Positions 34,025 through 59,304 of a DNA stretch of 64,000 bases are shown here, in pieces; within the stretch, counting starts at the first letter, position 1; each line of letters opens with the position of its first letter. A program made the translations under genes and the position numbers. The notes below the pieces were generated by a model that saw only the letters and a list, made by a program, of their open reading frames with translations, had not been told where the DNA came from and ran no database searches. The DNA is from Octopus vulgaris (taxonomy: Eukaryota), in assembly GCA_951406725.2 (NCBI GenBank), contig OX597831.1, forward strand, positions 32,302,001-32,366,000, written 5' to 3'.

Positions 34025-35300
34025 AGTTATCTTGATTATATTAATTTACATTGCAATCACCAGCTCAATAATGACTAAGTTATTTTATTTAATTCTTCAT
34101 TATTTTAAAAATGAATTGAGACAATGACTATGTAGTCATTTCTGATGATTGCCAGAGTTAGTTCTCAATTTCTGGTATGAAACCAATTGGAAAATTGGCT
34201 ACAATAAGGCTGTAATATTGTATTCTATTATTATGATTAATGATAATAATACACCCACTATAAACTAATATATCTTAGGTTTGTCATGAGCCTACAGGCC
34301 GGAGTTTAACCCAGGGTGAGTGATCAAGATTAAAATACATAGAACAACCTAAATAGGACACTAGTTGGTCTCAGGGCTAATGCCAAGTTGGTGGGACTCT
34401 CAGCTGAGAGGGACTGGGGCAACAGGAAACGAAGCAGTTTACTAAAGAACACCTTTGTTATCACTCATTCTAGGATTTGAAACCATCAACTTTGTATGTG
34501 TGTGTTTATGCGTGTGTGCATGTGTGTGCACATGTGTATGTGTGTGTGCATGCATCATGTGTGGGGGTGTGGGGGTGTATGGAGGTGTAGTGTGTGGGTG
34601 CATATTTGTACATCATGTGTTTGTGTGGGTGTGGGTGCATGGAGTGTGTCTGTGCTTGTGTATGCATGCGTGTGTGTGTGTATGTGTTGTGTTGTGTAGG
34701 GGGGGGTGTTGTGTGTGTGTGGGGGGTGAGGGAGATTTTTCTTTGTCTTGTGAGTTATTTGGTGACTTCACTTGCACTGATGCCTTACAAAAAAAAAAGT
34801 ACCCAGTACACACTGTAGGGTGGCTGGCATTAGGAACGGCATCTACCCCATATAAACCATGCCAAAGCTGACACTGGACTTTGATGCAGTCCTGCAATTT
34901 GTTGGATTCTGTGAAACCTTCAAACTCATGCTAGCAGGGAATATGAACCTTAAACAATGATATATATATATATATCTCAATCGTCTTATCATTTTATGTC
35001 TGCTTTCCATGCTTCTAGGGCTTAGACAAGTTGTCACAGTACATGGCAGTTCTTATTCATAGTTACTGCCCAGCTAAGTGTTGTTGGGGTACCACATTCA
35101 CCTGTATGCTTCATTTAGGCATCATTTCTACATCTGGATACTGATTGACCATTTTTATAGATTGTACTGGGTATGTTTTACAATAGCACCAGTATTAGAG
35201 AGACTGCCATGTTCTCGACAAGACTAAAGACTTAGCACAACCCTACAATGCTTGTGCTTGTTTGTTTATTGGGTGTACTGGGTGCATATTATTGTGGCAG

Positions 35301-35530
35301 CTATCCTCGGTAGTATAGTGGTAAGTATCCCCGCCTGTCATGCGGGAGAACGGGGGATCGATTCCCCGCCGGGGAGGCATCTTAATTTGAGGTTGACTTT
35401 GCCTTTCATCCTTTCGGGGTCGATTAAAAAAGTACCAGTTAATCACTGGGGTCGATGTAATCGACTTAATCCGTTTGTCTGTCCTTGTTTGTCCCTTCTG
35501 TGTGTAGCCCCTTGTGGGCAATAAAGAAAT
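35301..35530 (+). mobile_element. Chimeric retroposon: tRNA-Asp head plus SINE-A body and tail, with 15-bp TSD
   Basis: ATATTATTGTGGCAG direct repeats at 35286-35300 and 35531-35545. 35389-35530 matches the 3' part of SINE-A copies such as 2663-2910. Confidence 0.85.
35304..35376 (+). tRNA. tRNA-Asp(GTC) sequence, probably a retroposed pseudogene forming the head of a chimeric SINE
   Basis: TCCTCGGTAGTATAGTGGTAAGTATCCCCGCCTGTCATGCGGGAGAACGGGGGATCGATTCCCCGCCGGGGAG. Acceptor stem TCCTCGG/CCGGGGA, GTC anticodon, close to canonical eukaryotic tRNA-Asp. T-loop is altered (GATCGATT instead of TTCGATT). Confidence 0.9.
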
Positions 35531-36192
35531 ATATTATTGTGGCAGGCACCAGCATTACTGAGGCTGCCCTTTACTCTGCAAGACAGAAAATAATCCTTAC
35601 TGCTCTGGCTGTTTCCATATGTTCAGGATTATGTGATCAACAGAATGGGTAGAAAGGGGTGGAGATGATTACAGTAGATAAAGTAAGGTGGGGAGGAGAA
35701 AGAAATGAGAGCCTGATGATGTGTATGAAATGAGAGAACAGTAACTGAATTACTGCAGTGGAAGAGAAGAGAGACAATAAGATGTTGTAAAGGTTGGGTG
35801 CAATGGAAGAGAGACAATTATGGTAGGTACATATTTATAAGTAAAAAGAGAGCATAAGTGAAGGATAGTCATGAAAATAGCAAGTGGTCAGAGAATATGA
35901 TGAATAATAATAGATGAGCAGGGGGAGGGGATTGGCAGGTAGTGGTGTGGAAATGGGGTTGTAATGTTAGCTGATGAGGGAGAGAGCATGGAATGTGGGT
36001 GGTCAAGAGTGTAGAGGAAACAGAGTGAATATTATAAAGAAAATTCTGATGAATCTAAAAGATTTGTTGGTCTCCAGGTGAAACATCTTGCAAATTGCAG
36101 GTCAACTTTCTATTATAAATTAACTGCCTTCAAACATGTTGAGTATTTTTTTTTAATTTGCAGCTGCCATAGCAACCAAGGGTACCTATACT

Positions 36193-58270: not shown

Positions 58271-58420
58271 CCATCCCGACATCGACCCCGCTACACCAAC
58301 ATCAACATCAATCGTTTGTCATTCTCCAACAATCAACAATAACAACAACAACAACAACAACAAAGAAGAAGAAAGAGGACGACACGATGACAACGATGAC
58401 GACGACGACGACCAACTCAC

Positions 58421-58811
58421 CGTCCTGGTCTATCCATGATTCTGAACCACAATCCACGCTCCGGGAGGATGCCGGGCTAACACTGGTACGCGTGCTGGTG
58501 TTGGTTGAACTATACTTCCTGTTTCTGGCCGCGAAGGCCCTCAATAGATAACGATGTGAGGGGAACTCCTCTGGGCTATCGTCTGTGTATTCGTCGGTCG
58601 AACACAATGAACTCTGCAGGCCGGACGATTCGCCGCCAGATTCCAGGCTGACGGCATCCTTGTCCAAAGGCTGCGACTGGTTGTTGCGTTTGAAATTCTC
58701 CACGAAATTTTCGATCTCTTCTTCGATCTTATGAGCCTGGAAGCCCCCGGATGCACTTCCACTTGCGCTCGAAGGTACCCCCCTGTCTTGCCTGTATCTC
58801 CCTCGGCTCAT
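58421..58811 (-). CDS. Probable first coding exon (130 codons + 1 nt, phase-1 donor) of an unidentified protein-coding gene; Ser/acidic-rich N-terminus MSRGRYRQDRGVPSSASG...SESWIDQD
   Basis: The clearest complex, GC/CpG-rich ORF in the window. ATG context is GAGATATGA with an upstream in-frame TAA near 58863. The ORF runs into a consensus donor GACG|GTGAGT (plus-strand ACTCAC at 58415-58420), after which the sequence becomes simple repeat. Protein family not recognised. Confidence 0.75.
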
Positions 58812-59304
58812 ATCTCCGGGTAGATGTAGTGGCGGCGGCGGTGGTGATGATGATGATGATGGTTATTATTATTATTATATTAAGGATGGAGGTGTTGGTG
58901 GTAGTGATGATTGATGTGGTTGAGATTGTGTTGGTGGTGGTGGTGGTTGTGGCGCCGGGTGCGATAGAAGTGGCCACCTTCATACCCAGATTTCGTTTGG
59001 TATCAATGTTTGTCCGACATATCTCGTAGCCAACCAGCCAGCCAGGTAGGTAGGTAGATAGGTGTAAAAACTGTAACGGTGCCTAATGTCCACGACACGA
59101 CACGCAAGCACAGGGAAAGGCGAATAAAAACAGACCGACAGTTAGTTAAATAGTTAAATAGACACACAGATAGACACATAAATACATAAATAAATAAATA
59201 TATTCCTCAGGTTTTCTGTAAAACAGTTGTTTGATAAGCACTGACGCAATTAATAAAAACCATTTGTTGCTCTCATGGTCGTCTCTGATATAATATTCCT
59301 TTCT

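What the first reader, a model, noticed from the sequence alone, without database searches (positions are those of the whole stretch)
35286..35545. SINE head-swap caught in the act: complete tRNA-Asp fused to a SINE body inside one 15-bp TSD
Seen: ATATTATTGTGGCAG flanks CTA + 73-nt tRNA-Asp(GTC) + GCATCTTAATTT + the core and tail of SINE-A, whose own tRNA-like head is missing. There is no CCA after the discriminator G. Inference: the short leader and trailer suggest a pre-tRNA template, joined by template switching during reverse transcription or by read-through from a tRNA gene into a SINE. This is the proposed route by which new SINE families arise. The altered T-loop/B box may have silenced this copy.
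Basis: partly seen in the sequence, partly recalled or inferred. Interest (0 to 1): 0.7.

Follow-up and report, generated by a model that had tools for sequence, protein, structure and literature searches.

The report
Precursor tRNA replaces a SINE's head
An unprocessed aspartate tRNA copy and a headless short mobile element (SINE) sit in one insertion that other sequenced animals lack, one of dozens of separate fusions in this genome, likely made when the copying enzyme stalled at the SINE's head and jumped onto the tRNA precursor, the step long proposed to start new SINE families, though this copy has not multiplied.

Summary
Observation confirmed: a 15-bp duplication encloses CTA + tRNA-Asp(GTC) + 12-nt trailer + SINE-A nt 89-230. 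Leader and trailer match a tandem tRNA-Asp array elsewhere in the genome; the match stops inside its oligo-T terminator, so the template was a pre-tRNA. Contigs of other runs join the two flanks with one duplication copy (shown in 4 of 7 runs laid, inferred in 3): tRNA and SINE arrived together, and the insertion is probably polymorphic. It is single-copy, not a nascent family. It is one of many independent fusions: 49 of 81 non-array tRNA-Asp 3' ends run into a retroelement at the terminator; other pre-tRNAs and U6 (20 of 30) do too. The scan noted this class before on other DNA of this genome. Added here: true head replacements break at SINE nt 82, 88, 89, 89, the base of a predicted helix closing the SINE head, which fits stall-and-jump by reverse transcriptase (small n). 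Read-through is unsupported. B-box silencing is doubtful. Known relatives: U6/LINE and U6/SINE chimeras; the inferred origin of PittSINE. New variant of a known kind.

The parts
35286..35300 (+). Left copy of the 15-bp target-site duplication; its last 3 nt (CAG) also match the source gene's leader (possible microhomology)
   Evidence: single copy at the empty site
35301..35303 (+). Remnant of the pre-tRNA 5' leader (CTA; array units read CTG)
   Evidence: 6-nt leader match with 1 mismatch
35304..35376 (+). tRNA-Asp(GTC) copy, no CCA; differs from the gene at 35341 (C>T), 35350 (C>A), one extra G in 35352-35356, 35357 (T54>A)
35377..35388 (+). Pre-tRNA 3' trailer, identical to array units, ending after 3 of the 4 T of the Pol III terminator
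35389..35530 (+). SINE-A body and tail, nt 89-230; own tRNA-like head (nt 1-88) absent; no microhomology at the junction
35531..35545 (+). Right copy of the target-site duplication

Best explanation
This is a single-copy chimeric retrocopy: a pre-tRNA-Asp and a headless SINE-A lie inside one target-site duplication, likely joined when a LINE reverse transcriptase copying SINE-A RNA stopped at the base of a predicted helix that closes the SINE head and jumped onto the U-ended 3' tail of an unprocessed tRNA. Shown: one insertion (empty site), pre-tRNA boundaries (short leader, trailer cut in the terminator), single copy, recurrence with many RNAs and partners. Inferred: priming at the SINE tail by an unidentified LINE enzyme; stall at nt 89; end-to-end jump (a non-templated dA pairing with the 3' U is a plausible aid); second-strand joining through the 3-nt CAG match. 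With A and B boxes and no run of 4 T until 36146 the copy could in principle be read by Pol III into the SINE tail, but no daughter copy is seen.
For: Empty site: contigs join 35285 to 35531 in X4 and X19, in X1 (one 594-nt contig,+37), and X6 continues from 35300 into the right flank; inferred for X2, X18, X20. Source: 158-bp tRNA-Asp array on C5 with the same trailer. Recurrence: 118 exact tRNA-Asp 3' ends, 37 in the array, 81 outside; 49 of 81 run into one of six reference repeats right after the trailer. In 17 of these with an intact 5' end and a traceable trailer, the upstream match to the source gene is 0-10 nt. Duplications enclose tRNA+SINE-A in 13 of 21 cases, the SINE alone in 1 of 21, cross-paired null 1.2%. 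One partner carries a mature CCA end (L073, 1 of 81) and two keep what look like tRNA introns (L138, L140, by eye): RNA templates. U6 fuses the same way, 20 of 30. Many partners are full-length SINEs, whose 5' triphosphate and the pre-tRNA's 3'-OH (established knowledge) do not suit RtcB, which needs a cyclic phosphate and 5'-OH (PMC6789731, passages). A non-LTR RT jumps end-to-end and adds non-templated bases in vitro (10.1101/2021.04.30.442027, passages). Breakpoints 82, 88, 89, 89; nt 84-88 pair with nt 1-10 at P 0.98 in the majority sequence, 0.58 averaged over copies.
Against: Genomic junctions alone cannot separate a jump from RNA ligation; for this copy the SINE is truncated, so a cleaved 5'-OH end is possible. 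The hotspot rests on 3 independent cases (2 at 88-89; P about 0.008, post hoc, uniform over 39 searchable positions), breakpoints outside about 69-107 were not searched, and the helix is predicted, not probed. The partner LINE was not identified. The tRNA part carries 5 changes in 88 nt although flanks differ from organism B by only about 2% (17 substitutions in 806 nt): unexplained. No run showed a contig across either filled junction.
Confidence: 0.7

Rival explanations
1. RNA ligation first: a cleaved SINE-A RNA (5'-OH at nt 89) was ligated to the pre-tRNA 3' end, and the fused RNA was then retrotransposed, as shown for human U6/L1.
For: Blunt junction without microhomology, in the oligo-U tail; U6 fusions are abundant here; RtcB ligation shown for U6/L1 (PMC6789731); a nuclease cut beside the head helix could also give a hotspot.
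Against: RtcB was poor with 3'-OH U6 and with 5'-triphosphate partners; pre-tRNA trailers end in 3'-OH (established knowledge), one donor is CCA-ended, and many partners start at SINE nt 1. An RNase Z-type cut after the first unpaired base would start the body at nt 90, not 89 (inference).
Confidence: 0.18
2. Read-through: a headless SINE inserted into a tRNA gene's terminator, and the co-transcript was retroposed.
For: The junction has only 3 T, so read-through would be possible; three clustered tRNA-Asp genes on C3 do have a SINE-tail fragment behind their terminators.
Against: None of 45 array units read is followed by SINE-A; the junction pattern finds no source locus; dozens of different donors and junctions.
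Confidence: 0.04
3. Nascent SINE family: this copy is, or descends from, an active tRNA-Asp-headed master.
For: Promoter boxes present, terminator lost; probably polymorphic; a 63-nt contig with the same private tRNA variant exists in run X1 without a listed junction contig, so a second carrier elsewhere is not excluded.
Against: Private variant once in the assembly even at 1 mismatch; the only other junction hit has another breakpoint and trailer end.
Confidence: 0.04
4. Two separate insertions, DNA recombination, or an assembly artefact.
For: No laid run bridges a filled junction.
Against: One clean 15-bp duplication around both parts; empty sites lack both; no homology at the junction; the private variant is present in real reads (X1); the same anatomy recurs genome-wide.
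Confidence: 0.04

Closest known systems
U6/LINE and U6/SINE chimeric retrogenes (U6-L1; U6-L2 and U6-Mon-1 in platypus; U6 with L1, L2, RTEX and AnolisSINE2 in Anolis; PMC4476161, passages)
   Same: Small Pol III RNA, sense, fused at its oligo-U end 5' of a retroelement inside one duplication; each copy independent; U6 does the same in this genome.
   Different: Donor is an unprocessed tRNA with leader and trailer; it brings an internal promoter, which U6 does not; invertebrate genome.
PittSINE origin: tRNA-Asp head replacing the tRNA-Ile head of TguSINE1 by inferred template switching (PMC5729268, passages)
   Same: tRNA-Asp replaces a SINE head while body and tail stay; exactly the proposed intermediate.
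   Different: PittSINE amplified and its origin is inferred from consensus sequences; here the unamplified intermediate, source gene type and empty site are seen.
Human tRNA/LINE-1 chimeras (10.1101/2025.02.02.635956, passages)
   Same: tRNA sequence co-inserted with a retroelement, with duplications.
   Different: Those 21 loci are mostly tRNA halves in antisense, ascribed to twin priming; here whole sense pre-tRNAs joined at the terminator.
5' addition of small RNAs to SINEs (SINEU, PMC4494074; 5S or tRNA added to existing heads, PMC4824008)
   Same: Recurrent 5' capture by proposed template switch.
   Different: Those are amplified families; these are one-off copies.

Membership tests
Chimeric retrogene (small RNA/retroelement) | Both parts inside one target-site duplication, absent together at the empty site | tested here: met
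Chimeric retrogene (small RNA/retroelement) | 5' part bounded by the ends of an RNA, without gene flanks | tested here: met
   leader match 6 nt, trailer stops in the terminator
Chimeric retrogene (small RNA/retroelement) | Same orientation, retroelement 3' end intact | tested here: met
Chimeric retrogene (small RNA/retroelement) | Joined by template switch rather than ligation | not testable with these tools
   indirect only
New SINE family | Several dispersed copies sharing one head-body junction | tested here: not met
New SINE family | Internal Pol III promoter and no internal terminator | tested here: inconclusive
   boxes present by recalled consensus, T54A; no T4 run in 35304-35545; transcription not measured
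Functional tRNA-Asp gene | Identity to cognate genes, terminator, gene flanks | tested here: not met
   4 differences, no terminator, foreign flank
Named octopus SINEs (OK, OR1, OR2) or a named SINE superfamily | Match of SINE-A to the published consensus or domain | not tested
   no consensus library at hand; 'octopus' and these names are recalled or from a citation

The most novel reading that the evidence does not exclude
SINE head swaps are structure-guided: reverse transcriptase stalls at the helix that closes the SINE head and jumps onto U-ended pre-tRNAs, so precise, terminator-free head replacements arise again and again, and this still-polymorphic copy is a transcription-competent proto-SINE segregating in a living population.
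Probability: 0.3. Interest if true: 0.7.

Novelty: new variant of a known kind. Interest (0 to 1): 0.5.

Why it matters
How SINEs gain or swap heads is usually inferred from finished families. This genome keeps the intermediates by the dozen, with traceable source genes, and this one has an empty site in other individuals. If breakpoints really cluster at the base of the head helix, it would explain why swapped heads join bodies so neatly, and the jump-versus-ligation question becomes testable with one enzyme and two short RNAs. The practical side: such copies inflate tRNA gene counts.

Tried and rejected
Nascent family: rejected. L002 as sister copy: different breakpoint (82), trailer end and 5' truncation. 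Search for an array unit with the CTA leader or the private variant: none among 45 units. First duplication scan over mixed partners found clean duplications mainly for SINE-A; SINE-B and short-tail fusions often sit in (TA)n or show none, so the duplication test was run on SINE-A only. One search was swamped by array rows (100 of 240 listed) and replaced. In one search, 29 of 31 hits were ordinary SINE T-loops. Lack of filled-junction contigs in the runs laid is not taken as proof of absence (assembler and filter can drop them). An RNase Z-type cut as source of the nt-89 end fits one base worse than a stall. The partner LINE and the SINE's published name were not determined. No coding context was established; long frames in the window are nearly all microsatellite. 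Seven paper searches listed no report of pre-tRNA/SINE chimeras in cephalopods; the library lacks most subscription papers.

Full report
Observation. The 15-mer occurs at 35286 and 35531 only. Between the copies lie CTA, tRNA-Asp(GTC) at 35304-35376 (ARAGORN; Rfam 49 bits), a 12-nt trailer without CCA, and 142 nt of an abundant SINE (here SINE-A), starting at nt 89 of 230 and 97.2% identical to the nearest fetched copy. The genome is 2.8 Gb in 227 contigs; that it is an octopus is my recollection from its repeats, not a tool result.

Source of the tRNA part. A search with the tRNA and its edges hit a 158-bp tandem tRNA-Asp array on C5. Its units have the leader CAGCTG and, in several, the trailer GCATCTTAATTTT. 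The window matches 6 nt of leader (one mismatch; 3 of them shared with the duplication) and the trailer up to the third T of the terminator, nothing beyond. These are the ends of a primary Pol III transcript. The tRNA has 3 substitutions and 1 inserted base relative to the gene; none of 45 units read carries them and the variant occurs once in the assembly.

One event, probably polymorphic. Seven runs were laid, all as contigs, out of 24 listed. In X4 (organism B) and X19 (organism D) one contig passes from 35285 straight to 35531. In X1 (organism A) one 594-nt contig covers 35236-35300 with its letters 1-65 and 35531-35950 with letters 51-470. In X6 (A) the letters after 35300 are the right flank. 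For X2 and X18 (A; contigs stop matching at 35300 and run on for about 670 letters) and X20 (E) the empty site is inferred. X2's left flank has 0 differences from the window over 181 nt. No run showed a contig over a filled junction; X1 does hold a 63-nt contig identical to the private tRNA variant (35320-35382), which fits a heterozygote or a variant source gene. A loose end remains: 5 changes in 88 nt of the tRNA part is more than a young insertion should have gathered, given about 2% flank difference to organism B.

Not a family. A pattern for tRNA end + up to 25 nt + SINE core finds 2 places: the window and C17:42.03 Mb (L002), which has a 5'-truncated tRNA and breaks at nt 82.

One of many. 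The exact last 15 nt of tRNA-Asp occur 118 times (56 + 62): 37 in the array and 81 elsewhere, all 81 fetched. A script found a reference repeat starting within 40 nt in 50; I added 2 by eye and set aside 3 clustered genes on C3, leaving 49 (one, L110, may be a real gene); 3 run into simple repeats; 26 show no partner and most of these look like genes. Partners include full-length and truncated SINE-A, -B, -C, -F and two short tails. Trailers trace to many different genes; for 17 fusions with an intact 5' end and trailer match of 9 nt or more the upstream match is 0-10 nt. A run of 4 or more T precedes the partner in 28 of 49 by script (30 after correcting two by eye); the window copy is among those without. 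One copy has CCA directly after the discriminator (L073). Generic T-arm patterns give 42 hits before full-length SINE-B (8 fetched, ARAGORN called 2, two others appear to keep introns) and 24 before full-length SINE-A (ARAGORN called 10: His, Glu, Asp, Arg, Ser, Leu). I dropped 5 of the 24 as not tRNA ends, added the window and L002, set 5' boundaries by hand, and scored duplications: score 9 or more around tRNA+SINE in 13 of 21 (some are TA-rich), around the SINE alone in 1 of 21, and in 1.2% of cross-paired controls. Of the 30 best U6 matches fetched (48 listed), 20 run into the same partners by script, 22 by eye.

The head-swap point. Two whole-genome patterns that can see SINE-A breakpoints from about nt 69 to 107 returned only two tRNA fusions, at nt 88 (L202, 15-bp duplication) and nt 89 (L203, tRNA-Glu); both need exact motifs and missed the window and L002. 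With those, breaks are 82, 88, 89, 89. Folding predicts nt 84-88 paired to the 5' end, P 0.98 in the majority of 34 copies and 0.58 on average per copy; nt 89 is the first base outside. Leaving out the window, 2 of 3 at 88-89 has P about 0.008 under a uniform model, post hoc and on very few cases. Fusions to full-length SINE-A are several times commoner than head replacements.

Mechanism. Shown: single insertion, pre-tRNA ends, recurrence. Inferred: a LINE RT primes at the SINE tail, stops at the helix base or at the 5' end, and jumps to a free 3' oligo-U. A non-LTR RT does end-to-end jumps with non-templated additions in vitro (10.1101/2021.04.30.442027, passages). RtcB ligation explains human U6/L1 but needed a cyclic phosphate and a 5'-OH (PMC6789731, passages), which suits neither pre-tRNA or CCA donors nor full-length SINE partners; it remains the main rival for this truncated copy. 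On silencing: T54A fits the recalled consensus GWTCRANNC, the cloverleaf is still called, and the first run of 4 T lies at 36146, so the copy is not evidently dead at the promoter; expression was not tested.

Known relatives. U6 chimeras with LINEs of three clades and with SINEs (PMC4476161, passages); PittSINE's inferred tRNA-Asp head swap (PMC5729268, passages); human tRNA/L1 chimeras, mostly antisense halves (10.1101/2025.02.02.635956, passages); head additions in SINEU, MetaSINEs and mollusc SINEs (PMC4494074, PMC4824008, PMC4758252; passages). Buzdin 2002/2003, Schmitz 2004, Bibillo and Eickbush 2004 and Ohshima and Okada 1994 were seen only as citations. No supplements were read; those of the U6 and L1-chimera papers could list tRNA/SINE cases. 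Searches listed no paper on pre-tRNA/SINE chimeras in cephalopods. The scan's own notes already describe this class on other DNA of this genome for tRNA-Arg, tRNA-Ala, U6, 5.8S and 7SL; they are unreviewed, came after my census, and one supplied the id of the RtcB paper. Searches returned nothing.

Verdict. A real, single-copy pre-tRNA/SINE retro-chimera with true head-replacement geometry; a new variant of a known kind; interest 0.5.

Noticed in passing
L073 (G000:C1:183567267, -): tRNA-Asp 3' part ending in CCA fused to full-length SINE-B: a mature tRNA as donor, 1 of 81 sites.
   Followed up: partly
L138 and L140 (G000:C9:95.04 Mb; C23:34.26 Mb): tRNA-Lys-like and tRNA-Leu(CAA)-like donors appear to keep their introns, pointing to unspliced nuclear templates (by eye).
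   Followed up: no
L057 (G000:C3:23938200-23941700) and L110 (C18:2115345): tRNA-Asp copies identical to the gene with a 75-80% identical SINE piece right behind the terminator; may be old fusions kept as working genes, or SINE insertions at terminators.
   Followed up: no
L198-L201 (G000:C5:51.22-51.31 Mb): Tandem 158-bp tRNA-Asp array in both orientations, 45 units read, with varying trailers.
   Followed up: partly
L060, L069, L101, L152: Short repeats of the tRNA's first bases stacked upstream of the copy, as from repeated restarts at the 5' junction.
   Followed up: no
L004, L010, L012, L018, L020: SINE-A often forms head-to-tail multimers whose later units start near nt 47 or 15, matching the tail's last bases.
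   Followed up: no
L086 and L102: Locally duplicated fusions: two tRNA-Asp/SINE-F copies 1.5 kb apart, and an inverted pair of tRNA-Asp/SINE-B.
   Followed up: no
window 58308-58862 (-): An open frame with a non-repetitive, exon-like stretch, the only such frame among 34 of 150 aa or more; the insertion might lie in an intron of that gene.
   Followed up: no
G000:C9:100391470-100391532 (-): Donor 3' end resembles tRNA-Sec (recalled, not checked) fused to SINE-B.
   Followed up: no
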